IMG/VR virus record: IMGVR_UViG_3300045988_177309
Location: 1 to 32,169 of that record
Strand: one strand, 5' to 3'
Length of the DNA stretch: 32,169 nucleotides
DNA from: a virus
The position numbers were made by a program, and so were the translations under genes. A model generated the notes under the pieces. That model saw nothing but the letters and a program-made list of their open reading frames with translations, ran no database searches and was not told where the DNA came from. Below are positions 5,474 to 21,008 of this stretch, in pieces. Numbering within the stretch: the first letter of the stretch is position 1; every line of letters begins with the position of its first letter.

Positions 5474-5646
5474 TACTCCTTTGGGCACGGATTAAATATT
5501 TTTTTATATAAAGTAGAAAAATATGACAAGTTTAATTATCTTGTCAGAGTTGTAATGAAAAATGGCCTCTCTATAAGACATATAGAGGTGCCAAAAAATA
5601 TTACAACTTTTTCTTGACTATTAGAGGAAAGGAGGATATTTATACT

Positions 5647-6396: not shown

Positions 6397-6412
6397 TAGC
6401 ATTGTGTTAAAA

Positions 6413-6452
6413 AGGTTGCGGAAGGCAATAAAGCCTTCCACTTCCTTTTTAA
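6413..6452 (+). terminator. intrinsic terminator after the 5647..6396 gene
   Basis: ggaaggc-aataaa-gccttcc hairpin flanked by an A-run and ttccttttt. Confidence 0.55.
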
Positions 6453-7052
6453 CGAAGTTAATAAAAACCAAGCATTTTCATTAGGCGGCAAATTATATCT
6501 GGGCATTAAAAAATTTTTGGGCGTAAGGCAAAAATTGGATAATGCCTTGCCGCATTTTCCTTTTCCCTTTTGATTATAATATTATTATACAATATATTTT
6601 TATAAAAATAAACTGAAGCCGCGGCGGATTTAATTTGAAAGCGCGCAATTTGACAAGAAAATTTTTTTTCTTTCCTTTTGGAATTTTTGCTTTTTTTTAA
6701 TATTATAACATATTTTTTATAAAAAATCAAAAAATATAAAATGATTGGGTGGTGCCGGGGCGGAATAAAGATAAAATAAAAAAGCTGAGGATGCGTGAGC
6801 ACAACTCAACTTTTATGGGAAAATAGATGCATATGAGGCGAGCCGCTGGATTGAGCAAAAAATCGCCATATGAGGTTTGCGGGGGAAATACCGGAGCCTA
6901 ACAACCGGCTCCGGGACGCTGAAACTTAATTACAGGATTTTTTAGTTGGGGCACTTGAACCGCACTTGCGCAGAAAAAAATTTACAAGTCCTAATTAAAC
7001 TGAAATTCTGGTCGCCATGGCCAAGGGCGACCAGCTGAAAAAAAATAGGGGG

Positions 7053-7217
7053 TTATTCCCCTATGAGCCATTTTTTCAACAGTTCTGCGCATTCATAACA
7101 GTCAATCCCTTCATTGTCTCTTTCGCAATCAAAAGTTAAAGGGCAACAAGCGCAATCATTGAATGATTCTACAAAACTTTGCAAAATAGTATCAAGTCTG
7201 TTTTCATTTACCTGCAT
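7053..7217 (-). CDS. small Cys-rich (CxxC...CxxC) protein, about 54 aa
   Basis: Minus-strand ORF MQVNENRLDTILQSFVESFNDCACCPLTFDCERDNEGIDCYECAELLKKWLIGE with RBS GGAGGTTTGATAATATG. Too short for the track. Confidence 0.4.
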   Translation of the reverse strand: MQVNENRLDTILQSFVESFNDCACCPLTFDCERDNEGIDCYECAELLKKWLIGE

Positions 7218-7506
7218 ATTATCAAACCTCCTTTTGATGATATTATTATAGCACCAATAAATTTATTTGTCAAGCCCCCGCACGCAAAAATATAAAAAAA
7301 GAAGGGATTTTTTTCCCTCCCTTTTGGCTTTACAAAGCTGAATATAACGCGATATATAAGGCAATCTACTATTATCATCTTCCAGATTGAAAAGAGCTTC
7401 TGTTAAAATCTTAACGCCTTTCTTATCCAACTTAAAATTATTCTTATATAATCCTCCATAATATTCACCTTACGCGCGGGGGATTTTACCCCCGCGTTTT
7501 CCTTTC

Positions 7507-7860
7507 TTAAAATTCCGGTATTTTAATCGTGTAAGTTTTTCTAATTGTAACTTCTACACGTTCGGGAACCTGTTTACAGACAAATCTGTCATTTCGCACA
7601 TATTCCCCGATTTCTTCATCTTGCCAACGCTGGCGCGTTTTATCCTCAAAGCGCAATGTGTTATATTTGCTTAACGGCAAATGCCACAAATAAACAAATT
7701 CGCGCTTGCCTATTAGCTTATGTTTATCGGCTTTGCGATAGTTGCGAGTGTGTTCAACTCTGCGCCGCTCAAGATTGTTAGTCGTGCCGACTTTAAGAAT
7801 AAAGTCATCATTTTCATCAAGGTAACAGCCCACATAGAGAAATTCTTTTTCATTATTCAT
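7507..7860 (-). CDS. GIY-YIG-like nuclease domain protein (117 aa)
   Basis: FLYVGCY...ILKVGTTNNLERRRVEH matches the GIY / YIG / R..E(H) spacing of GIY-YIG/T5orf172-type domains. Start overlaps the upstream gene by 8 nt. Confidence 0.5.
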   Translation of the reverse strand: MNNEKEFLYVGCYLDENDDFILKVGTTNNLERRRVEHTRNYRKADKHKLIGKREFVYLWHLPLSKYNTLRFEDKTRQRWQDEEIGEYVRNDRFVCKQVPERVEVTIRKTYTIKIPEF

Positions 7861-8245
7861 CTTTTTTCTTCCTCTTTTGGATTAGATTTATTTCATAAGA
7901 ATTTCCCTCATAGTCAAAGATGACTTGGCGTTCTTCGTTCGTGACTTGGAGACTTTCGACCTTTGCGTTCAGCATTTCCGCAATTAGCGCAATTAATTCA
8001 GCCTTTGCGCCGTTTTTCTTTCTTTCGCGCTTCTGGAATTTGTAATTTGTTCCGGTTTGCTTTTTGTGGTCGCAATTAGTCATTTTTTTAGCAACCTTCT
8101 TTTGATCCGGTGTTAAGTCGTACTCCGTAGGCTTGCCATGTTCGACCGCTTCATCATAGGCCATAACTTCGCGGGCTTCGGCTTCGCTTATGTCCAGCGT
8201 TTTCATTAGATTTTCAAGTTTCGCTTTTTCTTGTTCTTTGGTCAA
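7853..8245 (-). CDS. hypothetical basic protein (130 aa); paralog of 10390..10773
   Basis: Shares ...KTLDISEAEAREV...YD... and ...YKFQKRER... with the 10390..10773 product. Confidence 0.6.
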   Translation of the reverse strand: MTKEQEKAKLENLMKTLDISEAEAREVMAYDEAVEHGKPTEYDLTPDQKKVAKKMTNCDHKKQTGTNYKFQKRERKKNGAKAELIALIAEMLNAKVESLQVTNEERQVIFDYEGNSYEINLIQKRKKKDE

Positions 8246-8287
8246 TGGCTCTCAAACCTCCTTTTGGAGGAAAAGGGGCAAAACCCC

Positions 8288-8662
8288 TTAACCTTCCAAA
8301 CCTTCCTTGGCTTCATCGCTCAGCGTAAAATGCGCCTTACGCTTAACCTCAGTGCGAATGACGATGCCCTCATCCTTCAACTTTTTTACAAGCTGGTTTA
8401 TACGGGAATGGGTTATGCTATCATCATCAAGAGCCTTGACTACTTCGGTAATAGTCATACCATCCTTGGGAGCGTGAAACAGAATAGCCTTGATGCGCTC
8501 GGTAAGGATTTCGTTTTCTTCCTGATGGGCAGTAGGCTTGCGAGTGCTTGAGCTCTTGCGGCTTAGCAGTTCAATTTCATGTTCAATGCCTGCAACAAGG
8601 TCAGGACGAGAAACAACTTCGCTCAGGGTCAGCAGTTCGGTAAACATTTCTTTCTTAGTCAT
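8288..8662 (-). CDS. winged-helix-like DNA-binding protein (124 aa); paralog of 10776..11141
   Basis: MTKKEMFTELL..RPDLVAG.EHE..LL.RK...RKPTA.QEE...ITEV.K.LD....SR.NQL.KK.KD.G....EVKRKA.F is conserved with the 10776..11141 product. Confidence 0.6.
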   Translation of the reverse strand: MTKKEMFTELLTLSEVVSRPDLVAGIEHEIELLSRKSSSTRKPTAHQEENEILTERIKAILFHAPKDGMTITEVVKALDDDSITHSRINQLVKKLKDEGIVIRTEVKRKAHFTLSDEAKEGLEG

Positions 8663-8752
8663 AGTATCAACTCACTTTCTGGTTTTTAAGTGTGTCCTTC
8701 ACTTAATAGTGATGCCCTTGGGAGTAGAACCCTGCTCCCTTGGAACGATTAT

Positions 8753-8781
8753 AGTATACACCATAATGCCGTTGGTGTCAA
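8753..8781 (-). promoter_or_regulatory. consensus sigma70-type promoter TTGACA-17-TATACT (minus strand) with conserved leader ATAATCGTTCCAAGGG
   Basis: Plus-strand agtata 8753-58 and tgtcaa 8776-81 with a 17-bp spacer. Leader motif is shared with 13001 and 13936. Confidence 0.65.
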
Positions 8782-8857
8782 CAGTTTTTTGGAAAAAATG
8801 AAAAAGTCAAGGGAAAGTTTTTTACAAACTTTCCCTTGAAAATTATGTTAATTATTT

Positions 8858-9301
8858 TCAATAGCTCACCGGATATTCATTACCCCTATATTCACCATAA
8901 ATATATTCATTGTTATAACAATCATAAGCGCAAATATAATTGTTACTTTTCCAATCATCATCATAATAATCTCCAAGGGTTTGCAAATACGTTTTCACTT
9001 CTGCGGGAATCCCATCGGCGGGTTTACGATTAACGAATTTTTTTTCGATAATAAATTCTCCGGTATTTTCTGACCAATAACCAAGCACCATTCCCCTTTC
9101 CATGTTGTCGGGATTATCCCATTCCCTTATACACTTGCCGATGTTGCCATTTTTTTCAATTTCATAAACTTCCATTGGGAACATACCATTGAATGCCTTC
9201 CAATTCTCAGTTATGCAAATAGGTGTGCGGTCTACATCACACTCGTATTGATCATTCAGCTCCCTACACTTTACAACAAGATACTTTTTCATTTTCATCA
9301 A
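8858..9301 (-). CDS. hypothetical protein (147 aa)
   Basis: ORF track. TAA stop. Confidence 0.5.
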   Translation of the reverse strand: MMKMKKYLVVKCRELNDQYECDVDRTPICITENWKAFNGMFPMEVYEIEKNGNIGKCIREWDNPDNMERGMVLGYWSENTGEFIIEKKFVNRKPADGIPAEVKTYLQTLGDYYDDDWKSNNYICAYDCYNNEYIYGEYRGNEYPVSY

Positions 9302-9307
9302 TTCCTT

Positions 9308-9649
9308 TCATTTTTTAGTATACCTTATTTTATCATAAGGGGCTGAGCTTGTCAACCCCTTTATTACAAAATGGTTAATCCACTTTTTCCCATTTATTTT
9401 TCTTATCGTTCCATTTGTATAAGGTATAGCCATAATCTTCATCGTTTTCATAGGCCGGATTAGATACAGTTTACATCCATCATTATTACTTATTGTAAAA
9501 CTTGGCGTATAATAATCATCTGGATCTAATGTCCCTTGTAATATCAAGCCTGAATCTATTGCTTTTTGAATGGTATTGGCAAAATCGCGCGCGATCTCAT
9601 AAGCTTTAGTATTGCGCCGCAGTTTCAGTTCATCTTGAACAAGGTTCAA
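9308..9649 (-). CDS. hypothetical protein (113 aa; TTG start as given by track, first internal ATG far downstream)
   Basis: ORF track. TGA stop. A 32-aa ORF (9651..9749) lies immediately upstream in another frame. Confidence 0.45.
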   Translation of the reverse strand: MNLVQDELKLRRNTKAYEIARDFANTIQKAIDSGLILQGTLDPDDYYTPSFTISNNDGCKLYLIRPMKTMKIMAIPYTNGTIRKINGKKWINHFVIKGLTSSAPYDKIRYTKK

Positions 9650-9747
9650 ATATTTATGGAGATCATGGGCGCGCCCGCTTCAACGTTTATTCGTTCTCGT
9701 ATTTCTACGCGCCCCAGCTCATCAATTCGCCTTACTTCAAACATTTT

Positions 9748-10008
9748 TTAACCCTCCAACATTGTTATGGTTTCATCGCCGCTGGTAATTTCTGCGCATT
9801 GATAATTACCATTATCTATATCACAGCTAAGAACGTAGCCATAATTTTTTCTAATGTAATCCTTGACGCGCTCATAATCTTCTTCGGTTGCAATTCCGCT
9901 CTTATCCCAATTTTCTTTACAGTTGTCCAGCATCAGCGGCGCAATAACTGCATAAGGAACTTCAACATCCACATTCTCAATCTTACAAATCTGCAAAGTA
10001 ACTTTCAT
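9748..10008 (-). CDS. hypothetical acidic protein (86 aa)
   Basis: ORF track. RBS AAAGGAGATTAAAAAAATG. TAA stop. Confidence 0.55.
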   Translation of the reverse strand: MKVTLQICKIENVDVEVPYAVIAPLMLDNCKENWDKSGIATEEDYERVKDYIRKNYGYVLSCDIDNGNYQCAEITSGDETITMLEG

Positions 10009-10069
10009 TTTTTTAATCTCCTTTTTCTCTTATCTTTTGGAGAACCCCCTTGTCCTCCTGACATTATGT

Positions 10070-10098
10070 AGTATACACCATTTCGTTTATAAAGTCAA
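10070..10098 (-). promoter_or_regulatory. sigma70-type promoter TTGACT-17-TATACT (minus strand)
   Basis: Plus-strand agtata 10070-75 and agtcaa 10093-98 with a 17-bp spacer. Drives the 9748..10008 operon. Confidence 0.55.
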
Positions 10099-10214
10099 TA
10101 CTTTTAGGAAAAAAATGTTTGTCTAAATTTTCACAATTTTTCGTTAAAAAATTACCAGAGATTCTATATTGACAAAATTCTCGCCGGTCTCATCTGAGAG
10201 CGGCGAGTTGAATG

Positions 10215-10310
10215 TCAAGAGGTAATTTTTGTAACAATTTTGTAACAATTATAAAACTTTGCGATAAATTCTCATGATTTTTTTAATAAAATAAGAATTA
10301 TTATCAAGGT
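10215..10310. promoter_or_regulatory. operator-like direct repeats of TTGTAACAATT (tandem pair at 10222-10250, third copy at 10293-10305)
   Basis: Read from the sequence. Lies between the 10070 promoter and the terminator at 10363. Confidence 0.45.
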
Positions 10311-10362
10311 TTTCAACTCAAATTATTACAAATTCGTAACAATTTATGTAATAAATTAAAAA

Positions 10363-10395
10363 ATAAAAGCCCCTTGCGGGCTTTTGTTTTTATTT
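10363..10395. terminator. bidirectional intrinsic terminator (aaaagcccc-ttgc-ggggctttt)
   Basis: Hairpin with an A-run 5' and a T-run 3'. Lies directly after the minus gene ending at 10390. Confidence 0.65.
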
Positions 10396-10773
10396 TCGCG
10401 GACAACTCAAAGTTATTTTATATTTTACATTATCCAACAGGAAAGAAAATTCTCTTTCCACGTTTGTAATTTCCAGCTTTTCCGCGCCTTTATTCTCAAG
10501 CATTTGCGCCAATGCCGCAATTATTTCTTGCTTTGCCGCATTAGCTCTTCTTTCTCTCTGTTGGAATTTATAGCTTGTTTTTGTGCGCGTAATTGTCATT
10601 TCCTTGGCAATTTTTTTTTGTTCTGCGCTCAATTCGCCCAGCTTTTCCCCTGCGTCTATACGCCTATCATAGTCTAACACCTCTTTTGCCTCTGCCTCTG
10701 AAATTTGCAACGTTTTCATTATCTGCTGGATTTGTGGGGAGCTTGCGTTCCCCACGTTTTTGCGTTGATTCAT
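10390..10773 (-). CDS. hypothetical basic protein (127 aa); paralog of 7853..8245
   Basis: ORF track. Conserved motifs as listed for 7853..8245. Confidence 0.6.
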   Translation of the reverse strand: MNQRKNVGNASSPQIQQIMKTLQISEAEAKEVLDYDRRIDAGEKLGELSAEQKKIAKEMTITRTKTSYKFQQRERRANAAKQEIIAALAQMLENKGAEKLEITNVEREFSFLLDNVKYKITLSCPRK

Positions 10774-10775
10774 GC

Positions 10776-11141
10776 TTACTGCTCAATCGGCTTGTGCTCA
10801 ACTCCTGCGGCGAAAAAGTACGCCTTGCGCTTGACTTCTTCGCGCTCAATCGTTCCGGCGTCCTTGGCCTTCTTGATAAGCTGATTCAATCGGGAATGGC
10901 TCAAATCTGCTATGTCCAGCATCTTGAGAATTTCTGTTACTGTGCGGCCTTCGCCATCACTCAAAATCTCAATGACACGGGCGATTATTTTGTCACCTTC
11001 TTCCTGCTTTGCCGTGGGCTTGCGCGTTGCGTTCTTGCGGTTCAGCAGGTCAAGCTCATGTTCCAGCCCGGCTACAAAGTCGGGGCGCGCCTGAATGGTA
11101 GGCAGATTCAGCAGAGCGGTGAACAGTTCCTTTTTGGTCAT
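10776..11141 (-). CDS. winged-helix-like DNA-binding protein (121 aa); paralog of 8288..8662
   Basis: ORF track. The 29 nt spanning its start/5'UTR (11137-11167) are identical to 8659-8687. Confidence 0.6.
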   Translation of the reverse strand: MTKKELFTALLNLPTIQARPDFVAGLEHELDLLNRKNATRKPTAKQEEGDKIIARVIEILSDGEGRTVTEILKMLDIADLSHSRLNQLIKKAKDAGTIEREEVKRKAYFFAAGVEHKPIEQ

Positions 11142-11264
11142 AGTATCAACTCACTTTCTGGTTTTTTTGACTGTCCTTGTCATTTTTTATCTGAAGGGCA
11201 TTTCCTGCCCTTCAGCTTACGACTTATTATAACATGGGGGGCGTGGTTTTGTCAATAGGTTTTT

Positions 11265-11966
11265 TTAACTATTGAACAACTTTTTTTGCATTTTTTTGTG
11301 CTGACGCATACAATGAACAAAAATGCGCGTTTCTATCTCGACATCTTCAAGCCCTGTATGACTTTCAACAAAGTCATTATTGCCGCTAATATATTTGTAC
11401 AGCACTTCTGCCGAACATTGCGGCTGATTGTTTTTAGTCAAGTAGCCATTTTCTTGACAAAAACGCTTATAAGTTTTTTGCTTTGCAATGGTACTGCGTG
11501 CCATGCGAACGGTATCATGCCATTCTATACCCTTGGGCAGAAAATAGCGGTATTTGCTTTTTGTTATATATCTTTGCGTAGCATTAAGCGCGTCATAATC
11601 AAATTTTGCATTGTGCGCCATTACTACGGTTATACCATACTCTGCAATAACATCGACAATAGCCTTGCGAATTTCGTAAAGGCTTGCGATCATGCGTTTA
11701 CCTTCAAGAATTTGCGCATCATACATGCCCATTTTATCGGCGTAATAGGCACTCTGCATAAGATTGCGCTCCGCGTAGTAAATGTCGCGGTTGATAAAGC
11801 TAAAACGTTCATACACGTTGCCGGATTTGTCTACAACTTGCGCGCCCAAGTCATAAAAAAGCGCGTTTTTGCTTACCAGTTTATTATTCTCATCTCGATA
11901 GGTGTTAGCCGTTTCAGTATCTAATACAAGATAATAGCGGCGGCGTTGGTCGATTTTCTTTTCCAT
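11265..11966 (-). CDS. DEDDh-family 3'-5' exonuclease (DnaQ/epsilon-like)
   Basis: Exo I YLVLDTETAN, Exo II VVMAHNAKFDYDALN, Exo III ESHTGLEDVEIETRIF. Probable start is ATG 11966 (MEKKIDQ...) with GGAAGGA RBS. Track ORF extends to 12005. Confidence 0.8.
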   Translation of the reverse strand: MEKKIDQRRRYYLVLDTETANTYRDENNKLVSKNALFYDLGAQVVDKSGNVYERFSFINRDIYYAERNLMQSAYYADKMGMYDAQILEGKRMIASLYEIRKAIVDVIAEYGITVVMAHNAKFDYDALNATQRYITKSKYRYFLPKGIEWHDTVRMARSTIAKQKTYKRFCQENGYLTKNNQPQCSAEVLYKYISGNNDFVESHTGLEDVEIETRIFVHCMRQHKKMQKKLFNS

Positions 11967-12074
11967 CTCTTTTTTCCTTCCTGCGGGAACATTGCGCCCC
12001 CGCAAGTATTATGTTATCACAAGTTGCTTTATTTGTCAACAACTTTTTGCAAAATGGGAAAGAATTTCCATTAT

Positions 12075-12398
12075 GCGGGATTCATCAAATGCCATGCATC
12101 GCGGTTGCGTTTTTCATCATCAAAAAGTATAGCATACTTGTCATTGGCATGATTGTGCTTTGGTGTACCATAGGGAATAATTGTCATTTCATCCCATTTC
12201 ACGGAGGGTAAATGCTTTTTTTATGGCGGTATAGCCATTTGTTCCGCTTTTGGATAACCAGCTAATTATTCCAACTTTATATCCCTTGCGTTGCAGTTGG
12301 TGAATGCGCCGCGCCAATAGAGAAAAGTTTATAAGCGGTTTGGCTATGCGGTATGGTGTAGTATCAGAATTTTCGAGGTATTCAAGCCAATTTTGCAC
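12075..12398 (-). pseudogene. possible frameshifted HAD/NT5C-like remnant (69-aa ORF 12189..12398 plus 38-aa ORF 12075..12186 in another frame)
   Basis: ...GYKVGIISW... then, in a shifted frame, ...YGTPK...DKYAILFDDEKRN.D.WH. These resemble C-terminal HAD motifs. No N-terminal DxD motif is present. Confidence 0.25.
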
Positions 12399-12414
12399 AC
12401 CATAAAAATTTGTC

Positions 12415-12450
12415 AGTGTTCACAATTTTGTCACAATTCAAAAAATGTAT
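12415..12450. promoter_or_regulatory. operator-like repeats GTTCACAATTTTGTCACAATT immediately upstream of minus gene start 12398
   Basis: Variant of the GTNACAATT repeat seen at 10222-10305. Confidence 0.4.
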
Positions 12451-12593
12451 TATTTGTGACGCGATAATACACTATGTATAATTATACAATTGTTAAAAAT
12501 ACTACGATAATTTTTTAACAATAGGGGGTTTCGGGATTGATAATTTTTTATTACAAATGATAAAAAATTATCAGAAATTCCGCCAAAAAATGC

Positions 12594-12634
12594 TTGACAC
12601 AAAGCTCGGCCTGTGCCAACCGCGCACAGGCCGC
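12594..12634 (+). repeat. copy 1 of repeated element: TTGACA-CAAAGCTC-[hairpin ggcctgtgc-caaccgc-gcacaggcc]-GCC
   Basis: Paralogous to 14399-14438. Same flank and loop, different stem with compensatory changes. Preceded by the shared block ggattgataat. Confidence 0.6.
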
Positions 12635-12722
12635 CAACAAAGTCAAGGCCATATATAAAAAATAATAGGCTGTAAATTACTTACAGCTTTTTAATTCAAT
12701 TTTTGTTTTTATTTTTCAAGCT

Positions 12723-12865
12723 TTAGTTTTCTTCATCATTTTTTTTATGTTTCTTTTTTCTGCGATACTTTTTTTTATCCAATTCAATTCTTGTATAAGG
12801 TTTAACGTCTCCCCAATTTTTTCTTATTTTTCGCAGGGTTTCAAGTTGCTGTTCTTTTGATGCCA
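12723..12865 (-). CDS. small highly basic protein (47 aa, K/R-rich C-terminus)
   Basis: Internal ATG 12865 with RBS AAAGTGAGGTG (MASKEQQLETLRK...KKYRRKKKHKKNDEEN). Track ORF 12723..12941 includes the 5'UTR. Confidence 0.4.
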
Positions 12866-13000
12866 TATAGTAACACCTCACTTTTAACTGAAAAGGCGGG
12901 GGGATGTTCCCCCGCTTGTTATGTCTTAGCCCTAACCTCATACCTGTTTTTCATTTTCTTCAATCTCCTTTGATTTTTTGTTCCTCTCTTGGAACAATTA

Positions 13001-13029
13001 TAGTATACTATACTTAGGCTAAAATGTCA
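13001..13029 (-). promoter_or_regulatory. consensus promoter TTGACA-17-TATACT (minus strand) with leader ATAATTGTTCCAAGAG
   Basis: Plus-strand agtata 13001-06 and tgtcaa 13024-29. Confidence 0.65.
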
Positions 13030-13038
13030 ATACCTTTT

Positions 13039-13509
13039 TCAAAGGTTTTTTGTTTCTGAAACAAAATACTTTGCGCCAACTGCATCAAGTATTGTTTTGG
13101 CTTTCGCGCTCTGCTCTTGAGTTGCGCAAAAACAATTGATAATAAAATATTTATTTATGTCTATCCAATTAAAAGGGATATCTGCCAATTCCAATTGATC
13201 GCGCAAAGCATATAATATTTTTTCATCATGTTTTATGGTGCTTTCAATCTTCCAGAGCATTTCTTTGCGCGCTTTTTCTTCCAATAGCTTAACAAGATAA
13301 ACCCCTATAAAATTTGCCGCCGCGGTGACAGCCATTTTTCCCTCAATGCTAAGCGCGGCATCGCTTGTTAAAAGAATAACATAAGTATAAAAGCCATATG
13401 TTAAAGCATTTATTAAGGCCGCCGCAAGCTTAGAACCTTTAATTGTAATAAGGCTTTTTACTGTTGAAAGAATTACATTGATTATTGTACAAATAGAAAA
13501 CAATATCAT
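13039..13509 (-). CDS. membrane protein (156 aa, 3-4 predicted TM helices in N-terminal half)
   Basis: ORF track. Hydrophobic segments. TGA stop. Confidence 0.55.
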   Translation of the reverse strand: MILFSICTIINVILSTVKSLITIKGSKLAAALINALTYGFYTYVILLTSDAALSIEGKMAVTAAANFIGVYLVKLLEEKARKEMLWKIESTIKHDEKILYALRDQLELADIPFNWIDINKYFIINCFCATQEQSAKAKTILDAVGAKYFVSETKNL

Positions 13510-13599
13510 TAAAAATCACCTACTTTTTTAAGTATTCCTCCAAAAAAGAGAGGGTTAAGAGATTGTCTTTGTTATTCGCCTAGAGTCTCAGCGGTTTTT

Positions 13600-13749
13600 T
13601 TATCCCCCACAAACTGCCGCCAGTAGAATATATAAGAGGTATAAACAACTTGCGCCGCATATGGCTTGTGTTGCGCGTATTGCGAACCATGCGACTGAAC
13701 GCGGGCGAACCTTGAATTTTTTGGTTACAATGTAATCATCATCAAACAT
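13600..13749 (-). CDS. small hydrophobic protein (49 aa)
   Basis: RBS AAGGGAGGAAGAAACAATG. ORF MFDDDYIVTKKFKVRPRSVAWFAIRATQAICGASCLYLLYILLAAVCGG. Confidence 0.4.
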   Translation of the reverse strand: MFDDDYIVTKKFKVRPRSVAWFAIRATQAICGASCLYLLYILLAAVCGG

Positions 13750-13935
13750 TGTTTCTTCCTCCCTTTTGTTTATACCTTATTATACTATTTATTTTATTAT
13801 TTGTCAATAGATATTTTTACAAAAAGATTGTCGAGTTTTTAACAAAGTTTGTCGCTTTAACACGTTAAAGCATTATCACTTTAATGCGCTAAAGTGACGC
13901 TCTAAAAAATAAAAAAAACTTTTTCAAAAAAAGTG

Positions 13936-13964
13936 TTGACAGATTTTAAGTGTTGTGCTATACT
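13936..13964 (+). promoter_or_regulatory. perfect consensus promoter TTGACA-17-TATACT
   Basis: TTGACA 13936-41, TATACT 13959-64. Confidence 0.75.
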
Positions 13965-13970
13965 ATAATT

Positions 13971-14123
13971 GTTCCAAGGGGAGCGCGGTTAGCAGACACC
14001 GTGCAGGGGTTCAGGTAGTAAGTCCCCAAAAGGGCAGTAAAGCCAAGCGAATCGCGTCACAAGGAATCAGTAAGTCGCTCCCAAAGAACAAAAAAGTTGC
14101 TAAATTTTAGCAACTTTTTTTTT
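13971..14123 (+). ncRNA. short structured RNA (about 120-150 nt) between a consensus promoter and an intrinsic terminator; weak resemblance to the domain IV / helix 8 region of small SRP (4.5S) RNA
   Basis: No ORF. Terminal helix GGGAGCG...CGCUCCC. Internal CAGGGGUUCAGGUAGUAAGUCC...GGGCAGUAAAGCCAAG. Terminator gttgctaa-atttt-agcaac + T9 at 14096-14123. Confidence 0.55.
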
Positions 14124-14134
14124 ACACAAAGGTA

Positions 14135-14163
14135 TTGACAAGCTTGCGCAAGTGTGGTATACT
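14135..14163 (+). promoter_or_regulatory. perfect consensus promoter TTGACA-17-TATACT
   Basis: TTGACA 14135-40, TATACT 14158-63. Confidence 0.75.
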
Positions 14164-14272
14164 TGAATGGGATGCTGCTGTCAACAAGACTGACTATTTA
14201 TTAACAATCTCAGTTTCCGCGGCGGAAACCTGTTTCCCAACAGGAAATAGAAAAGATAAGTTAATTTTTTAA
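14164..14272 (+). ncRNA. second short structured RNA (about 105 nt)
   Basis: Two hairpins (gtttccgc-g-gcggaaac; cctgtt-tccca-acagg) followed by a T6 run at 14265-70. No ORF longer than 8 codons. Confidence 0.45.
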
Positions 14273-14398
14273 CAAAGTAAAACTTTTTCGTAACATTTTG
14301 GACTTGTTAAAAAATTAACAATATTTGCCCAATTTTAGGATTGATAATATTTTAACAAAGTTGTCCAAAGTTTGTTAAAAATTTACCACAATAAACTC

Positions 14399-14438
14399 TT
14401 GACATAAGCTCGGTGCGTGTCAACCGCACACGCACCGC
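14399..14438 (+). repeat. copy 2 of repeated element: TTGACA-TAAGCTC-[hairpin ggtgcgtgt-caaccgc-acacgcacc]-GC
   Basis: See 12594-12634. Preceded by the shared block taggattgataat. Confidence 0.6.
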
Positions 14439-15039
14439 TGAATAATATAACTGTATCAACCTCTTTATATAATAATAGCACAGCTTAATAAGTCTCTAAG
14501 CTGTGCTACAGTAACAGTGCAGTATCTACCAAGGAGAGTGTTGCCGTGGCGGCATTGAGCATGTACACAACGTTATATTATTAATGCTCAGTATGTCGAG
14601 CTAAAAGGCTGTTCGCGCAACCTTATTCGCTTGAAGAAAGGAAGTGGAAAATGAATAATCATTAAAAAAATAATTTTCATTTTTTATTTTGTCTGTTGGA
14701 GTAAAACCAAGAGAGAAAGATATTGGAAGAAAAAGCTCTCTTAATTTATATTAGACAGAGCAGACTATATTAAGCAGTATGTTGCTGCATTACTTAATGT
14801 TAGAACCGCAGAAGAGAGAGTAGCTTTGTTATTGCGGCAAGCACAATACTTATAATACGCTCTACTTGTTTTAACAAAAGTCTTCCCCTTATGCTCCTTC
14901 TACATCAACGTTTATATTAGTTATTATGATTGAATGTTAATTAAATAAAGTTAAGTTATTTAATTGTATGCAAGTCTATAGACAAGCTTTGTATGTATTG
15001 TGACACTTGCTACGTCGTGTCACACCAGAAAGGAGGTTA

Positions 15040-15340
15040 AGAAAAAAAAACAAAATAATTTTTCTTTTTACATTATAACGAAGCAATAAAAAACGTTATA
15101 AAATTAATATTAATATTTAATTTATATTTATTATATTTAATTTAATACATTAAAAAGAAATAAATTACTAAAAGAAAATCAAATATTAATTTAAGAAAAG
15201 AATTTAGTTTATACAAAAAAAGAATACATTAAATAATATTTCCTTAATAGATTAATTATATTATACAGTATTTTTTTAATTTTGTCAAATTTTTTATATT
15301 TCTTTTATTCTTATTTGCTGTTGGTGAGTTTGCTGGCAAG
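15040..15340. other. roughly 300-bp extremely AT-rich tract (candidate DNA-unwinding/origin or packaging element)
   Basis: More than 85% A+T by eye, no ORF, sits between structured GC-richer segments. Confidence 0.4.
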
Positions 15341-15651
15341 TGCCGCAAGCACAAGAGTTTCAGGATGTGATTTGAGTTAAATAAGCCGCGGCGGAAGAAA
15401 AGATTTTTCTCTGTTGGCCTATTTTGATTGAAATCAAGGCCGTTAACGATGACTAGGATTATTCTAAGTGGGGGCTGGGGTTGGAGGGTCGCGCGTTCCT
15501 CAGATAAAAAGTCCGTAAGGTTCATGAATGTTTATCTGGTAAAAACTAAAAGAACAAAAGGGGGGTAGTATTTCGGGAAAAAATTTTTTTTGATTTAATA
15601 AAAACGTTTTGCCTGGACAATCTTCTGTCCCCAAGTATTTTTATTTTCAAA

Positions 15652-15905: not shown

Positions 15906-15934
15906 TTGACATTGCGCTTTTTTCATGCTATAAT
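15906..15934 (+). promoter_or_regulatory. perfect consensus promoter TTGACA-17-TATAAT heading the recoded structural operon
   Basis: TTGACA 15906-11, TATAAT 15929-34. Leader has two hairpins, then RBS AAAGGAGG. Confidence 0.75.
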
Positions 15935-16000
15935 AAAGTAAGACTTAGAGTAAAGTCTAAAATTTCGGAGCGAGGCTCCGAAAGGAGGTTCTAAAAAACT

Positions 16001-17075
16001 TTTGATAAAATTAGATTATTCTTTAGAAACTCCAGAAGAAAGAGTACAATTAGTAGAGCAAATTTTGGCTGAATAGCCTAATCCTCCTCAAAAATACATA
16101 GAAATTTTAACTGATTATCTAGTTATGTGCATGGAGCGTCAAGAACGCCGTGAGCGCAAAATATTAACTGAGAATCGTTTGGCGACAGTTAATAAACGTG
16201 AAACCTCTTTTGAAGGTCTTGTATCACAACTAGAAAGTGGCGAAGATGGAATCTATAATCTCATTCATGAAAATAAGAACCAAATATTTAAACCAAAAGT
16301 AAGAATAACAAAAAAAGACATTGAAGAAATACCCGAACTCCAACAAATAAGAGATTCCATTGAATTTTGGGAAAAAAAGGCAAAAACCGCACAAGGTCGC
16401 GAAGCATTTATTATACGAAAAACAATTATTGAATTGCGCAAAGATCAATACCTTGTGAAAGACTCTTTCCGATAGCCCATTCAAGCAAGTTCAACCGCGC
16501 ATTCACGTGGTATCTATAAACTTACTTATGATGATAAAACTTGCAATTTTGATGAAGAAGGATATCCAATTCCTTCTGGTCTCTCTCTTTTGGATCCAAA
16601 CATTTGTTCGACAATCTTATGTTTATATTCTAAATTAAAACAAGATGGTTATAGTGAATTCATTGGTGATTTATACTATCTTATGGAAGATTTTGATAAA
16701 ATTTCTATTATTGCGCTTGCGCCTTATCCTATTTATCAAAAATTAGTATTATATAAAATAGATGGCCGACAAAACGCTGAAATACAAAATTTATTACAAA
16801 CAGAATTTGGTATTACTCATAGTCTTGAATACCTTTCGAGTCTTTGGCGTAATAAAATTCCTAAATTAATAGCCAGTGCCGCAGAAGATCAATATCTTGA
16901 ATGGTATTACCTTAATGCTGAAAAAGGCAAATATAAAAGATGTAGCTGCTGTGGACAAATTAAATTAGCTCATAATAAATATTTTTCTAAAAATAAAACT
17001 AGCAAAGATGGTTATTACAGCATTTGTAAAAAATGTCGCAATGCTAAAAGTAAAAAAAGAAAAAGGAAGAAATAA
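16001..17075 (+). CDS. hypothetical protein with C-terminal Zn-ribbon (CSCCGQ...CKKC) and basic tail; 1 in-frame TAG
   Basis: Track ORFs 16125..16475 and 16590..17075 share a frame through the TAG at 16473. The frame stays open upstream to a TTG at about 16001, 11 nt after AAAGGAGG. The start is uncertain and may be 16125. Confidence 0.5.
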
Positions 17076-17078
17076 TTT

Positions 17079-18266
17079 ATGAGCGAGTTACATTATTGTA
17101 AAAAATGTAATCGAACCATGAATGGGGAACAATTTTATTCTTCTAACAATTTAGAAAAATACCCTGATAATGGTAAATTTGATATTTGCAAGAAATGTAT
17201 GACTATGCATGTAGATAATTGGGATCCAAACACTTACCTTTGGATCCTAGAAGAAGCTGACGTGCCTTATGTTCCCGATGAATGGAATAAATTGATGGCA
17301 AAGTATGCCAATAATCCAGAAAAATTAACTGGTATGACTATTCTAGGGCGTTATCTCTCTAAAATGAAACTTAAACAATTTAGAGATTATCGATGGAAAG
17401 ATACCGCTTTCTTGCAAGAATTGACACAAAGTAAAATTGAGCAAACAATGAAACGCTCCGGTTATGATGCTTAGCAAATTGCCGAAGCTATTAATAAGGT
17501 TACTTTTACTTTTGATGAACATTATGAATAGCCTCCAATTCCTGCTTCGAATGAATGTAGTGAATCTGAAGATTATTTTGACCAATAGAATGATATTTCT
17601 ATTCCAGAAGAAACGTTTGATTTAACCGACGAAGAAAAATTAATGTTGCGTCTTAAATGGGGAAAAACTTATAAACCAGAAGAATGGATTAAACTTGAAC
17701 AATTATATAATGAATTTCTTTAGTCTTATGATATTCAAAGCGCAGGACATATTGATACTCTTAAATTGATATGCAAAACCTCTCTTAAAGCCAATTAGTT
17801 AATCGATATTGGAGATGTAGAAGGTTTTCAAAAAATGAGCCGGGTGTATGATAATTTAATGAAGAGCGGTAAGTTTACTGCTGCTCAAAACAAAGCCGAA
17901 TCTGGGGAATATGTAAATTCAATTTCTGAACTTGTTACTTTATGTGAATAGCAAGGTTTTATTCCTCGTTATTATGTATCTACACCGCAAGATAAAGTTG
18001 ATGAAACTTTATAGGATACTAAAAATTATGTGCGGACTTTAGTTACCGAAGAAATGAACTTAGGTAATTTAATTGAATCTTCAATACGCACAATGAATTA
18101 TGAAGAAAATAAAGAAGAAGATGAAGATATCGAAGATGAAATAATGGAAGATGTAGTTCCTGAAATTACTGATGAAGACTTCATGGAGCAAGAGGAATTT
18201 CTTGAGTCTGAACAAGAGAAAGATGCGCGATTGACTGAAGAATTGGCCTTGGGCAAAAATAATTAA
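17079..18266 (+). CDS. hypothetical protein (N-terminal CxxC...CxxC, acidic C-terminus); 7 in-frame TAGs
   Basis: Track ORFs 17079..17474 and 18030..18266 share a frame. The frame stays open through TAGs at about 17473, 17528, 17585, 17720, 17798, 17949 and 18010, with no TAA or TGA. TAA at 18264-66. Confidence 0.6.
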
Positions 18267-18937
18267 TGGCATTACAAGAACTTTTAAATTTATAGTCTCG
18301 ATACAATAAATTAGGGCTTTCTGAAGAGCGCGTAACTGCAATTCTTCCAGTAGTGCGTGAATATGTAGCATTCTGGCGTGAATACCCAGATATGTTTATT
18401 GATTTCCTTTTGGAAGCGGGGAACCCTTAGAATTTTCATCTTTATTTTTATCAACGAGTATTTTTACGTGCGGCAATGCGGCATAAATATGTGTATGCAG
18501 TTTACCCGCGCGCCTATTCAAAATCGTTTCTTGCAATTATGATTTTAATGATACGTTGCATTCTCTATCCCAAGTGTAAACTTTTCGTTACTTCGGGTGG
18601 TAAAGAATAGGCGGCTGGTATCATAAAGGAAAAAGTACAAGAAATATGTAATCTTATTCCAGCAATGGATAAAGAAATAGATTATCGACCTGGTCAAACT
18701 AGATTTATTAAAGACCAAACTACAATAGTATTTAAAAATGGCTCTTATTTTGATAATATTGCAGCGCGTGAAACCTCTCGTGGTAAACGTCGTCATGGTG
18801 GAGTCATAGAAGAATGTGTTGGAGTCGATGGCGATATACTGTCCCAAGTTATTATTCCCACAATGAACATTTCACGTATGTGTATGGATGGAACAACATA
18901 GCCTGAAGAAACGCTCAATAAGTCCCAAATTTATGTT
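18266..18937 (+). CDS. terL: terminase large subunit, exon 1 (ATPase domain)
   Basis: ATG overlaps the upstream TAA (TAATG). ...AVYPRAYSKSFLAIM... (deviant Walker A) ...ETLNKSQIYV coupling motif. In-frame TAGs. The frame then degenerates and hits TAA at 19007, so the exon must end near 18937. Confidence 0.65.
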
Positions 18938-19530
18938 AATTTTTTGGTCATTTTACGTTACTTAAATGTATTAATTTTAAAGAGAAAAAAGCCCATTCTA
19001 CCATTATAAAATCTAAAAGAAAGCTTACGCAAGAACAAGTTTTTATGATTTATGTAAATAATGAATAGAATATTATTCCAAAAACATATCTTTGTAATAT
19101 GTTTAATATCACTAGTAATACAATTTATACTATTTTAAATCAAAAATCTTATCAAGATTATTGGCAAGATTATCAAAAATTAACGAATGATCAAAAAGAA
19201 CAATTAGCATCATTGTTGCGAAAGCAACAACAGCAAACCCCTTGAATTGCTGGGAAGCCCTAAAAAATAGGGTAATCAGCAGCCAAGCCTTGAATAAAGG
19301 AAGGTTCAACGACTATCTCAATATGAGAGTAGAGGCAAGCGTCTCGAAGTGGGGGGCCCTTAGCAGGTAAAGCTGAAGGTGAAGATATAGTCTTTTCTAT
19401 ATAGTAATATATAGCAGTTCATAAGAGAACGTATTTAATTTAGCGAATTAAATAGAAAAATAAAGAACAACTGCGGGATACAAAAACACATATGCTTATG
19501 ATAAACTTATTTAGTTGTTAGTTTGGTAGA
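18938..19530 (+). mobile_element. group I (IA-like) self-splicing intron interrupting terL; boundaries approximate
   Basis: P GAATTGCTGGGAAGC 19245-59. P5 hairpin ccct-aaaaaat-aggg. Q AATCAGCAGCC 19274-84. P6 ccttgaataaaagg. R GTTCAACGACTA 19304-15. P8 tctca-ata-tgaga. S AAGATATAGTC 19382-92 (GACUA:UAGUC P7). P9 ctatata-gtaa-tatatag. All in canonical order. Confidence 0.7.
19045..19245 (+). CDS. intron-internal ORF, HTH-like (possible degenerate homing-endonuclease DNA-binding module); contains 1 in-frame TAG
   Basis: Frame differs from both exons. MIYVNNE(Q)NIIPKTYLCNMFNITSNTIYTILNQKSY... resembles a NUMOD/HTH motif. TGA stop at 19243-45. Confidence 0.25.
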
Positions 19531-20525
19531 TCGTAAGACCAGAACGTTCAATTATTCTCGGAGGTACTTACCGCATCCCAGTTCTTATGAAGCTTCTGGA
19601 TAAAAGCTTTGTTCAAGACTTGCGTATGGATGGTACCTTTAATGAAAGTGCATTTTAGCGAGAATATGAGTCGAAATGGTCTGGCACAGTAGAGGATGCA
19701 TTCTTTAATCCAGAAGTTTTTGAACGTAATCGCATTCTTAATCAGCCAGAATATGAACTTTCTGGACGTGCATCAAAACAATCTTATTATGTGCTTTCTG
19801 TGGATGTTGGTCGCAAACAATGCGACACTGTTGTTTGCGTTTTTAATGTCATTCCATAGTAGCAAGGTACATCAATAAAAAAATTGGTTAACATATTTGT
19901 ATTAACTGATGAACATTTTGAAGATCAAGCAATAAGATTAAAGCAATTATATTATAAATTTAAAGCACGTCGTATTGTAATTGATGCGAATGGATTAGGT
20001 ATTGGACTTGTAGATTATATGATAAAAACTCAAGTTAACCCTGAAACAAATGAAACTTATTATGATTTTGGTGTTTATAATGATGAAGATAATTATTACA
20101 AAAAATATAGAACCATTTTCACAGAACAAGATGCAATGTATTTAATTAAAGCTAATGCGCCATTAAATACTGATGCTCATGCGAATGCACAATCTTAGCT
20201 ATCTTCTGGAAAAGTAAAATTTTTAATTGATGTTCAAACAGCCAAAGCGAAATTGCTTAATACAAAAGTTGGCCAAAATATGAGTCCTGAACAAAGGACA
20301 GATTATTTAAAACCATTTAATTACACTTCCATATTAAAAGAAGAAATGTTGAATCTTCGTGAAGAAAATGAAGGTATTAATATTAATTTAAAACAAATAA
20401 ATCGCGGAATACGAAAAGACAAATTTTCTGCGTTTGAATATGGGTTATATTATATTAAACATGAAGAAGATGACAAGAAAAAACGTAAAAGATTTAATGC
20501 AAAAGATTGGGCTTTTTTTAATTAA
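19530..20525 (+). CDS. terL: terminase large subunit, exon 2 (linker + RNaseH-like nuclease domain)
   Basis: ...FQREYESKWSGTVEDAFFNP... then ...YYVLSVDVGRKQCDTVVCVFN... and IVIDANGLGIGLVDYM. In-frame TAGs at about 19656, 19857-62 (double) and 20196. Track ORFs 19884.. and 20253..20525 share the frame. TAA at 20523-25. Confidence 0.7.
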
Positions 20526-20634
20526 AGGAGAAATAAAATATGAAAAGTTTTGCAGTAATAGCCAATAAAGCTATTAGAAGTTTTGATACGACTATATTAA
20601 ATTATACTGATATTGCTATGAGGTATTATCAACA

Positions 20635-20994: not shown

Positions 20995-21008
20995 AGGAGG
21001 TGCGTAAT

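What the first reader, a model, noticed from the sequence alone, without database searches (positions are those of the whole stretch)
12530..14440. Repeated regulatory cassette: TTGACA + AAGCTC + hairpin with conserved loop CAACCGC and compensatory stem substitutions
Two copies (12594-12634 and 14399-14438) share the 5' flank (G)GATTGATAAT...TTGACA(Y)AAGCTC and an identical 7-nt loop CAACCGC. Their 9-bp stems differ in sequence yet both pair perfectly (ggcctgtgc/gcacaggcc versus ggtgcgtgt/acacgcacc). Compensatory change is the classic signature of a functional hairpin in RNA or ssDNA. The hairpin occupies the position where a -10 box would be, so this is not an ordinary sigma70 promoter. Candidates include a phage RNAP or alternative-sigma promoter, a rolling-circle or ssDNA origin/nick site, or a protein-recognised RNA leader.
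Basis: seen in the sequence. Interest (0 to 1): 0.6.

Follow-up and report, generated by a model that had tools for sequence, protein, structure and literature searches.

The report
Repeated promoter–hairpin cassette of phage early region
The two look-alike hairpins are real, but they are members of a large family of intergenic promoter-plus-hairpin "punctuation" cassettes that separate the small early genes of a big stop-codon-recoded phage, rather than an exotic promoter or a replication origin.

Summary
Both copies exist as described, and the chance expectation is 0.01.

The stems covary. A 96%-related phage (L056) keeps both copies and shows further paired changes.

The two copies are not a special pair. 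A covariance model finds 4 copies in the window and 182 hits (94 distinct) in 80 related phage contigs. All lie on one strand, all in the early-gene cluster, and none in unrelated DNA.

In relatives the hairpin abuts consensus sigma-70 promoters:
- 30 of 94 have TTGACA-17-TATAAT ending 7-8 nt before the stem.
- 34 of 94 have a promoter on the other strand ending 3-4 nt from the stem.
- 15 of 94 have both.

The window type (TTGACA 5-9 nt from the stem, no -10) is a recurrent variant (29 of 94). So TTGACA is the -35 of the family's early-promoter consensus.

On the early (minus) strand the hairpin follows gene ends and carries a U-rich tail (…UUUGUGUCAA).

Best reading: a PeSL-like composite promoter/stem-loop cassette that attenuates leftward early transcripts. 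The conserved loop and the face-to-face promoters remain unexplained.

This is a new variant of a known kind, of moderate interest.

The parts
12534..12544 (+). Shared 5' flank GGATTGATAAT of copy 1. It is part of a TTTCGGGATT-containing stretch that, in relatives, lies in the spacer of leftward early promoters.
12593..12599 (+). CTTGACA: a -35-type hexamer 7 nt from the stem with no -10. It is also the 5' arm of an outer stem. Read on the minus strand it is the UGUCAAG that ends the U-rich tail.
12607..12633 (+). Copy 1 hairpin: 10-bp GC-rich stem, loop CAACCGC.
   Evidence: 41.6 bits, E 5e-15
12642..12647 (+). GTCAAG: the 3' arm of the outer stem of copy 1, and a decapitated -35 (TTGACT) on the minus strand.
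12667..12689 (.). Canonical bidirectional terminator of the leftward gene 12941-12723. The cassette hairpin lies 33 nt beyond it in the leftward direction.
14338..14348 (+). Shared 5' flank GGATTGATAAT of copy 2.
14399..14404 (+). TTGACA of copy 2, 6 nt from the stem, with no -10.
14411..14437 (+). Copy 2 hairpin: 10-bp stem, loop CAACCGC. It is the last copy before the sigma-like gene, a position that is syntenic in relatives.
   Evidence: (44.8 bits)
14475..14509 (.). Second, AT-richer 14-bp hairpin that accompanies copy 2. It corresponds to the terminator next to copy 1.
10169..10219 (+). Third copy: TTGACA 10169-10174, hairpin 10180-10207 (7 bp + G.G mismatch + 4 bp), GTCAAG 10214-10219. 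It is orthologous to L056:2858-2908.
   Evidence: 10.6 bits, weak
6999..7043 (+). Fourth copy, not used to train the model: hairpin 7008-7034 (CTGGTCGCC ATGGCCAAG GGCGACCAG). It lies 10 nt from the leftward terminator at 7064-7045.
   Evidence: (36.1 bits, E 1e-12)
8799..8815 (+). Remnant of a copy: only the 3' flank (GAAAAAGTCAAGGG) is left. The hairpin and its left flank, present at L056:1408-1446, are deleted, with a breakpoint at the stem base.

Best explanation
The two sites are members of a clade-specific family of intergenic regulatory cassettes in the early-gene cluster of a large TAG-recoded phage. Its closest cultured relatives infect Firmicutes.

Each cassette combines the family's sigma-70/sigma-A early-promoter consensus (TTTGTGCAA..TTGCCTATTGACA-17-TATAAT), or a remnant of it, with a GC-rich hairpin of about 9 bp stem and 9 nt loop. 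This is the same kind of thing as the promoter-early stem-loop (PeSL) cassettes of T4-type phages.

Proposed working (inferred, not shown):
- The early genes are transcribed leftward, on the minus strand.
- On that strand the hairpin, followed by its U-rich tail (A-R-U-U-U..., in the window type ...UUUGUGUCAAG), acts as an attenuator or back-up terminator. It insulates one small early transcription unit from the next.
- Promoters that abut the hairpin restart transcription at or inside the stem. Their own RNAs therefore either carry the hairpin at the extreme 5' end or escape it.

In this window the promoters flanking copies 1 and 2 are reduced to their -35 hexamers, 6-8 nt from the stem. TTGACA here is therefore not a working promoter; its complement forms the end of the U-rich tail and, in copy 1, an outer stem.

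As dispersed repeats, the cassettes probably also serve as recombination and deletion points that shuffle early genes.
For: Shown:
- Family and structure. 182 covariance-model hits (94 distinct) in 80 relatives plus the window. There were none in 461 kb of unrelated viral DNA; the only hit in that control search was one weak match in the related Enterococcus phage locus L135 that was searched alongside it. 93.5% of pair cells are paired, 181 cells are changed on both sides, and slid controls give 27-47% paired.
- L056 orthologues carry new paired changes.
- Promoters. 30 of 94 have a consensus + strand promoter whose -10 ends 7-8 nt from the stem. 34 of 94 have a minus-strand promoter ending 3-4 nt from it. 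29 of 94 are the 'TTGACA adjacent' type and keep the upstream promoter consensus.
- Polarity and place. All strong promoters in window 6400-11500 are leftward. All 182 hits have the orientation that puts the T-rich flank downstream in the leftward direction: mean 4.3 T in 9 nt against 2.0 on the other side, and 20 of 29 'adjacent' members have at least 5 T.
- In 62 of 94 the hairpin is at most 128 nt past the stop codon of a leftward ORF. In a few it is 17-25 nt past the stop with no other terminator detected by my scan.
- In the window, copies 6999, 10171 and 12598 each lie 10-160 nt past a canonical leftward terminator.
- Plasticity. The early region of the window and L056 is mosaic. One deletion ends at a stem base, and one gene cassette has moved, with a breakpoint in a terminator loop.

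Precedent: PeSLs are sigma-70 promoters plus stem-loops that terminate transcription. They are classified into five subclasses by where the stem-loop sits relative to -35 and -10, and they drive modular shuffling (PMC2839356; PMC4122927).
Against: - The U-tract is short and offset by two purines in most members. In copy 2 it is only UUAUGU.
- 62 of 94 cassettes already have a canonical terminator just upstream, so a second one looks redundant.
- The 9-nt loop is larger than usual for terminators, and part of its sequence is conserved in a strand-specific way (C 87/94, G 81/94). A terminator does not need this.
- 30 of 94 have a perfect promoter that places the complete hairpin at the 5' end of a rightward RNA, which points to a role on the other strand.
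- The family never occurs in reverse orientation after rightward genes.
- The window copies lack a -10 on either side, so the 'promoter' half of a PeSL is not met here.
- No transcript data exist. Termination, start sites and early/late timing are all inferred.
Confidence: 0.42

Rival explanations
1. The functional molecule is the rightward (+ strand) RNA. The hairpin is a promoter-proximal or 5'-terminal leader stem-loop whose conserved loop is read by a protein. Possible roles are protection of the RNA 5' end in a Firmicutes host, a nut/boxB-like signal for processive antitermination toward the late operon, or the handle of short antisense RNAs directed against the early genes.
For: All 182 hits are on the strand of the late genes. 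In 30 of 94 a consensus promoter ends exactly 7-8 nt before the stem, so the RNA would start 0-2 nt before the hairpin. The loop and the 3' flank CCGA are conserved in a strand-specific way. The last copy is syntenic 1.5-2.3 kb upstream of the sigma-like gene and heads a non-coding stretch. 18 of 94 are followed by a + strand terminator, which would give a two-hairpin small RNA; copy 1 has one at 12667-12689.
Against: In the window no strong + strand promoter precedes copies 6999, 10171 or 12598. Most rightward transcripts would run antisense into early genes with no terminator. No N-like or RNA-binding partner was identified. G.U pairs are not favoured over A.C (10 against 21), as they would be if only the + RNA mattered.
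Confidence: 0.25
2. The element works at the DNA level. A perfect palindrome is kept by template switching or gene conversion and serves as a recombination or deletion hot spot, a protein-bound cruciform, or a strand-specific nick or recognition site. Transcription signals are only passengers.
For: Stems are almost purely Watson-Crick (781 WC, 10 G.U, 21 A.C), as expected if complementarity is copied at the DNA level. GC-to-CG flips are frequent. Copies within a genome show concerted evolution: the flank of L056 copy 2 resembles copy 1. A deletion ends at the stem base, and another breakpoint lies in a hairpin loop.
Against: A 9-bp stem with a 9-nt loop is a poor cruciform. No recombinase or nickase was linked to the cassettes. 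The tight spacing to promoters and the polar T-rich flank argue for a transcriptional role.
Confidence: 0.12
3. An RNase III-type processing site in polycistronic early RNA, as in T7 or SP82: outer stem CUUGAC/GUCAAG, internal loop, inner GC stem.
For: Copy 1, the copy at 10169-10219, and L056:1408 and L056:2858 fold into outer stem + symmetric internal loop + inner stem, with z-scores of -4.5 to -7. They lie between early genes.
Against: The outer stem is absent from copy 2 and from most relatives. The total helix is shorter than typical RNase III substrates.
Confidence: 0.07
4. A promoter for the phage-encoded sigma-like factor (16002-17075) or for a phage RNA polymerase that recognises a hairpin. 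Alternatively, a rolling-circle or ssDNA origin with a nick in the loop. These are the first reader's candidates.
For: A sigma-like gene is present (phrog_5767, E 5e-44). The hairpin replaces the -10 in the window copies.
Against: There are no copies in or before the late genes other than the sigma gene's own distant upstream region. The same -35 serves ordinary sigma-70 promoters in relatives. The sigma-like gene has its own perfect TTGACA-17-TATAAT at 15906-15934. No Rep/HUH protein or giant RNA polymerase was found among the neighbours. There are several copies per genome.
Confidence: 0.04

Closest known systems
PeSLs (promoter-early stem-loop cassettes) of T4-type phages (Arbiol et al. 2010, PMC2839356; Comeau et al. 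2014, PMC4122927)
   Same: Both are dispersed cassettes under 100 bp in the intergenic spaces of a hyperplastic cluster of small early genes. Both are made of a strong sigma-70-type promoter consensus plus a stable GC-rich stem-loop whose position relative to -35 and -10 varies between copies. Both are associated with indels and gene replacement between close relatives.
   Different: The phage clade is unrelated (relatives of large Firmicutes siphophages, TAG-recoded). The hairpin is much longer (27 nt against short GGGG..CCCC stems) and cannot fit inside a 17-nt spacer. Part of the loop is conserved. Promoters often face each other across the hairpin. The window copies have no -10 at all. Terminator activity and mini-circles are untested here.
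Intrinsic (Rho-independent) terminators, including tandem terminators
   Same: GC-rich perfect stem, a T-rich tract on the downstream side in the direction of the genes, and a position just after gene ends.
   Different: The loop is 7-9 nt with conserved positions. The U-tract is short and offset. The element usually sits behind a canonical terminator. It is absent after rightward genes.
Lambda-type nut sites (boxB hairpins) and HK022 put RNAs
   Same: Several copies per genome of a promoter-proximal hairpin whose stem varies with compensation while the loop is conserved, placed upstream of terminators.
   Different: No boxA and no N-like protein were identified. The hairpin is often at +1. 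Rightward transcripts would be antisense to the genes they cross. Nothing of this kind is known in Firmicutes phages.
T7 / SP82 RNase III processing signals
   Same: Repeated intergenic hairpins with an internal loop in early transcripts (window copy 1 and L056 copies).
   Different: The outer stem is not conserved across the family.

Membership tests
PeSL-type promoter/stem-loop cassette | Contains a strong sigma-70-like promoter (-35, 17 nt, -10) | tested here: inconclusive
   Met in relatives: 30 of 94 on the + strand and 34 of 94 on the minus strand score at least 10 of 12. Not met in the two window copies, which have only the -35 hexamer.
PeSL-type promoter/stem-loop cassette | Stable stem-loop next to or overlapping the promoter elements, at variable positions | tested here: met
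   the stem lies 7-8 nt after a -10, 3-4 nt after a -10 on the other strand, or 5-9 nt after a -35.
PeSL-type promoter/stem-loop cassette | Many dispersed copies in intergenic spaces of a plastic cluster of small early ORFs | tested here: met
   4 copies in the window and up to 4 or more per 10 kb in relatives. Positions between leftward ORFs. Mosaic early region between the window and L056.
PeSL-type promoter/stem-loop cassette | The stem-loop terminates or attenuates transcription | not testable with these tools
   Only the polarity of the T-rich flank and the position after stop codons are consistent with it.
PeSL-type promoter/stem-loop cassette | Recombination between cassettes causes indels or shuffling | tested here: inconclusive
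   One deletion ends at the stem base (window 8799 against L056:1408-1446). One relocated gene cassette has a breakpoint in a different terminator's loop. Too few events for statistics.
Sigma-70/sigma-A promoter (the window copies themselves) | -10 hexamer (TAnnnT) 16-18 nt downstream of the -35 | tested here: not met
   The hexamers at that distance are CAACCG and AACCGC. The promoter scan lists no site using these -35 hexamers.
Intrinsic terminator (minus strand) | GC-rich stem, short loop, and a run of U immediately 3' of the stem | tested here: inconclusive
   Stem is met. The loop is 7-9 nt. For the tail, 43 of 94 have at least 5 T in 9 nt. Copy 1 (AGCUUUGUGU) was listed by the scan; copy 2 (AGCUUAUGUC) was not.
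N4-type hairpin promoter for a virion RNA polymerase | 5-7 bp stem with a 3-nt loop, and a giant virion RNA polymerase gene | tested here: not met
   The stem is 9-10 bp and the loop 7-9 nt. No such gene was found among the proteins scanned. The rest of the genome was not seen.
Rolling-circle / HUH origin | A Rep/HUH gene nearby and a conserved nick motif in the loop; typically one origin per replicon | tested here: not met
   No Rep among 20 proteins. There are 3-5 copies per 10 kb. Only a CG dinucleotide is conserved in the loop.
Lambda-type nut site | boxA + boxB with a conserved loop, an N-like arginine-rich protein, and a downstream terminator on the same strand | tested here: inconclusive
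   The loop is partly conserved. Only 18 of 94 have a + strand terminator within 120 nt. No boxA or N-like protein was identified.
Any Rfam family | Reaches the family's gathering score | tested here: not met
   Only the group I intron in the window, and tRNAs and an intron in relatives.

The most novel reading that the evidence does not exclude
The hairpins are a new class of protein-read RNA signals: variable stem, conserved loop, often at the exact 5' end of RNAs made from perfect promoters, and often faced by a second perfect promoter. They would steer the early-to-late switch of TAG-recoded Firmicutes phages, for example through nut-like processive antitermination of rightward transcription that runs antisense through the early genes into the sigma and late operon, or through mutually exclusive face-to-face promoters acting as a switch.
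Probability: 0.12. Interest if true: 0.7.

Novelty: new variant of a known kind. Interest (0 to 1): 0.36.

Why it matters
The finding shows that composite promoter/stem-loop cassettes are not confined to T4-like phages of Gram-negative hosts, where they have been described so far. They also punctuate the early region of an unrelated, uncultured clade of large stop-codon-recoded gut or rumen phages.

The family gives a ready-made map of early transcription units for about 80 contigs, in the form of 94 distinct sequences and a covariance model. It also offers a candidate explanation for the mosaic early regions of these phages.

Two features go beyond what is described for PeSLs and are testable with a simple in vitro transcription or Term-seq experiment:
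- a strand-specific conserved loop;
- perfect promoters facing each other across 27 nt.

For genome annotation the practical lesson is that TTGACA next to a GC hairpin in these phages is not a novel promoter type.

Tried and rejected
- Exact-pattern scan of IMG/VR for AAGCTCGG-N7-CAACCGC: 54 hits, all chance (no stem, no TTGACA). The loop and the AAGCTC box are lineage-specific, so relatives had to be reached through the sigma-like protein instead.
- INPHARED phages, near and distant DNA searches: no relative.
- Rfam at gathering and at E-value thresholds, and ARAGORN: nothing at the cassettes.
- The other CAACCGC heptamers (11787, 12101, 16492) lie inside genes without stems and were rejected.
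- A -10 hidden in the loop, or brought into range by hairpin extrusion: the spacings do not fit, and the loops of promoter-bearing and promoter-less copies are alike.
- Simple inversion of a promoter-hairpin segment between the TTGCCTATTGACA inverted repeats, as the origin of the 'adjacent TTGACA' type: rejected, because the hairpin keeps its orientation and the -10-to-stem distance differs (3-4 against 7-8 nt).
- Using G.U against A.C to decide the transcribed strand: uninformative (10 against 21, mostly at the loop-closing pair).
- Pseudoknot between loop and flanks: no mutual information beyond the stem pairs.
- CRISPR-repeat mimic, tRNA-like element, DGR or retron readings: rejected from memory of their anatomy and because no matching neighbours were seen. 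These were not formally tested.
- Enterococcus phage VRE9_3, a syntenic cultured relative: only one weak promoter + short hairpin + CCGAAAAA site, so no experimental system was found.
Full report
**1. The observation**

- Copy 1 reads cTTGACAcaAAGCTCGGCCTGTGC-CAACCGC-GCACAGGCCGcc (12593-12635).
- Copy 2 reads cTTGACAtAAGCTCGGTGCGTGT-CAACCGC-ACACGCACCGct (14398-14439).

With the flanking C-G pair the stems are 10 bp. Four pairs differ between the copies, and all four are changed on both sides.

TTGACA-N0-3-AAGCTC occurs twice against 0.01 expected. The heptamer CAACCGC alone is not significant, and its other three occurrences are inside genes without stems.

It runs from TTGTTAAAAA and GGATTGATAAT on the left to ATAATAG plus a second hairpin on the right. 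No -10 hexamer follows TTGACA at 16-18 nt.

**2. What the window is**

Under the standard code the right half of the window has few ORFs. If TAG is read as a sense codon, the + strand from 15954 becomes a continuous row of long ORFs carrying 1-10 in-frame TAG each. The small minus-strand ORFs on the left carry none.

PHROG matches identify three + strand genes:
- a sigma-like factor (16125-17075, E 5e-44);
- a large terminase, split by a group I intron (Rfam, 19192-19414);
- a portal protein.

The closest cultured relatives of the sigma-like protein are 130-140 kb phages of Enterococcus, Clostridioides, Brevibacillus and Geobacillus.

All promoter-like sites scoring at least 10 of 12 in 6400-11500 are on the minus strand.

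From this I infer a large TAG-recoded phage of a Firmicutes host. Small early genes are transcribed leftward from host-type promoters, and late genes rightward. The early/late timing is inferred, not shown.

**3. Relatives**

The sigma-like protein retrieved 183 related stretches in IMG/VR, from contigs of up to about 400 kb; 80 loci were kept.

The closest, L056 (96% sigma identity), has both copies.
- Copy 1 has the same stem but loop CAATCGC.
- Copy 2 has stem CGCTGCGTGC/GCACGCAGCG, which is two more pairs changed on both sides, and AAGGTC instead of AAGCTC.

L056 and the window hold further elements of the same build: TTGACA, then 5-8 A-rich nt, then a GC hairpin with a different stem and loop, then 6-8 nt, then GTCAAG. 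These are at L056:1408 and L056:2858, and at window 10169-10219. In them TTGAC/GTCAA form an outer stem around an internal loop.

**4. The family**

I aligned 32 perfect hairpins from the relatives that share loop and flank features and built a covariance model from them.

- The model finds four sites in the window, all on the + strand: 14402-14446, 12598-12642, 6999-7043 (36 bits, not in the training set) and, weakly, 10171-10216.
- Over 1.4 Mb of relatives it finds 182 hits at E < 0.01. All are on the + strand, and all lie upstream of the sigma-like gene.
- In 461 kb of unrelated viral contigs it finds none. The single hit in that control search is a weak match in the Enterococcus phage locus L135, searched alongside them.
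- A 21-base pattern from one loop subfamily occurs in only 24 stretches of IMG/VR, many of them on contigs already retrieved through the sigma-like protein.

Among the 94 distinct sequences:
- 93.5% of pair cells are paired, against 27-47% when the partner column is slid.
- 181 cells are changed on both sides.
- Mutual information peaks at the stem pairs and nowhere else.

Two caveats apply. The training set was chosen for perfect stems, and the alignment is fitted to the model, so the percentages lean toward the structure. In addition, stems contain almost no G.U (10) or A.C (21) pairs. This fits complementarity kept at the DNA level, or needed in both transcripts, as well as it fits selection on a single RNA.

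Family consensus: AAAYT - C S G S S C G C N - A S R N Y C G T N - N G C G S S C S G - CCGA. The loop C and G are present in 87 and 81 of 94 sequences.

**5. Context, which changes the interpretation**

- In 30 of 94 distinct members, a consensus TTGACA-17-TATAAT on the + strand ends 7 or 8 nt before the stem.
- In 34 of 94, an equally good promoter on the minus strand ends 3 or 4 nt from the other side.
- 15 have both, facing each other.
- 29 of 94 are the window type, with TTGACA 5-9 nt from the stem and no -10. Of these, 16 have the minus-strand promoter.

Promoter-bearing and promoter-less members share the same upstream consensus, TTTGTGCAA..TTGCCTATTGACA. So TTGACA is the -35 hexamer of the family's early-promoter consensus. 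In the window lineage only that hexamer remains: on both sides of copy 1, and on the left side of copy 2.

Position and polarity:
- The hairpin lies at most 128 nt beyond the stop codon of a leftward ORF in 62 of 94 cases. In a few it is 17-25 nt beyond the stop with no other terminator detected by my scan.
- A canonical leftward terminator lies within 120 nt in 62 of 94. A rightward terminator does so in only 18 of 94.
- The flank that is downstream in the leftward direction is T-rich: mean 4.3 of 9 nt, and at least 5 T in 20 of 29 window-type members (for example AGUUUUUGUCAA). The other flank is T-poor, mean 2.0.

**6. Comparison with what is known**

The closest described kind is the PeSL of T4-type phages. 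PeSLs are small cassettes of a strong sigma-70-like promoter plus a stem-loop that terminates transcription. They are scattered through hyperplastic early regions. The stem-loop can sit upstream of -35, over -35, between the boxes, over -10, or just before the start site. They act as recombination points for modular shuffling (PMC2839356; PMC4122927).

The present family shares the anatomy, the place and the variable promoter/stem geometry. The early regions of the window and L056 are mosaic:
- One cassette has been deleted in the window with a breakpoint at the stem base.
- The gene at 13039-13509 sits in a different slot in L056, with a breakpoint in a terminator loop.

The differences from PeSLs are:
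- the phage clade;
- a much larger hairpin;
- a partly conserved loop;
- face-to-face promoters;
- in the window copies, no -10 at all.

I therefore file it as working like a PeSL and as a new variant of that kind, not as a proven member. Terminator activity and cassette-mediated recombination are untested.

**7. Mechanism and rivals**

My best reading (confidence about 0.4) is transcription punctuation of the leftward early units. The hairpin plus U-rich tail attenuates transcripts that pass the preceding terminator. Abutting promoters restart at or inside the stem.

The main rival (about 0.25) is that the rightward RNA matters. Its support is the exact 7-8 nt spacing from perfect promoters, the strand-specific loop, and the syntenic last copy ahead of the sigma-like gene. 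These fit a 5'-terminal or nut-like leader hairpin.

A DNA-level role (palindrome kept by template switching, acting as a recombination hot spot) and an RNase III site are minor rivals.

These were an alternative-sigma or phage-polymerase promoter and a rolling-circle origin. There are no copies among the late genes. The sigma-like gene has its own perfect host-type promoter at 15906-15934. No Rep or polymerase gene was found among 20 neighbouring proteins.

**8. Verdict**

The feature is real, well above chance, and structurally conserved. It is one lineage's version of a repeated early-region promoter/hairpin cassette rather than a new kind of promoter or origin.

Two points remain unexplained and make the family worth one experiment: the conserved loop, and the convergent perfect promoters 38-45 bp apart.

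Noticed in passing
window 15954-32169 (+ strand) versus 263-13749 (- strand): Stop-codon recoding. Rightward late genes carry 1-10 in-frame TAG each, for example 21054-22616 (portal) with 10. The leftward early genes carry none. Reading TAG as a sense codon joins the fragments into long ORFs. No tRNA is present in the window.
   Followed up: partly
window 16002-17075: The sigma-like factor (phrog_5767) has a possible N-terminal extension from TTG 16002 that contains a TAG at 16075. Full-length protein would then need suppression, while ATG 16125 would not.
   Followed up: no
window 19192-19414: Group I intron (Rfam RF00028, 92.7 bits) splitting the large terminase gene (18266-19009 and 19464-20525). 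Relative L109 also has one. L056 seems to lack it: its alignment with the window skips 18937-19466.
   Followed up: partly
window 13936-14120 and 14135-14270 (+): Two units that look like non-coding RNA genes inside the finding's span. Each has TTGACA-17-TATACT. The first has a structured core of about 110 nt and a strong terminator (fold z = -5.2). Their promoter and leader sequence is the early-gene consensus in inverted orientation. No Rfam match.
   Followed up: partly
window 14440-15550: About 1.1 kb without ORFs between copy 2 and a conserved block. It is absent at this place in distant relatives and carries a perfect leftward promoter (15288-15260). Possibly an inserted non-coding unit.
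   Followed up: partly
window 15559-15596: GGGGGGTAGTATTTCGGGAAAAAATTTTT is 90-97% identical in relatives whose sigma protein is only 62-68% identical. In those relatives it lies about 130 nt after the last hairpin. The core TTTCGGGA also recurs in the spacers of leftward early promoters and upstream of copy 1 (12529-12538).
   Followed up: partly
relatives, e.g. L070:2600-2720, L068:90-220, L098:2900-3010: Perfect or near-perfect sigma-70 promoters face each other across the 27-nt hairpin (15 of 94 distinct cassettes). RNA polymerase footprints at the two promoters would overlap.
   Followed up: partly
window 8288-8662 and 10776-11141 (-): Paralogous small early genes sharing an 83% identical 76-nt 5' region (8624-8699 and 11103-11178). 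Both give weak winged-helix (MarR-like) hits below Pfam cut-offs. They are candidate regulators for the repeated TTGTnACAA / TGATAA-TTATCA palindromes in the spacers.
   Followed up: no
window 4194-4251: Exact tandem duplication of a 29-mer, AAAGTAAAATTGTGCGAGCGGTAGCTCGC. Each unit ends in a short GC hairpin.
   Followed up: no
L076:1245-2377 (-): Cluster of six tRNA genes on the early strand of a relative, interleaved with weak hairpin-family hits (L076:1890 and L076:2662). Anticodons were not examined.
   Followed up: no
window 12571-12591: TCAGAAATTC-C-GCCAAAAAAT resembles the two cassette flanks joined without a hairpin (model score 8.9 bits, E 1.3). It may be chance.
   Followed up: no
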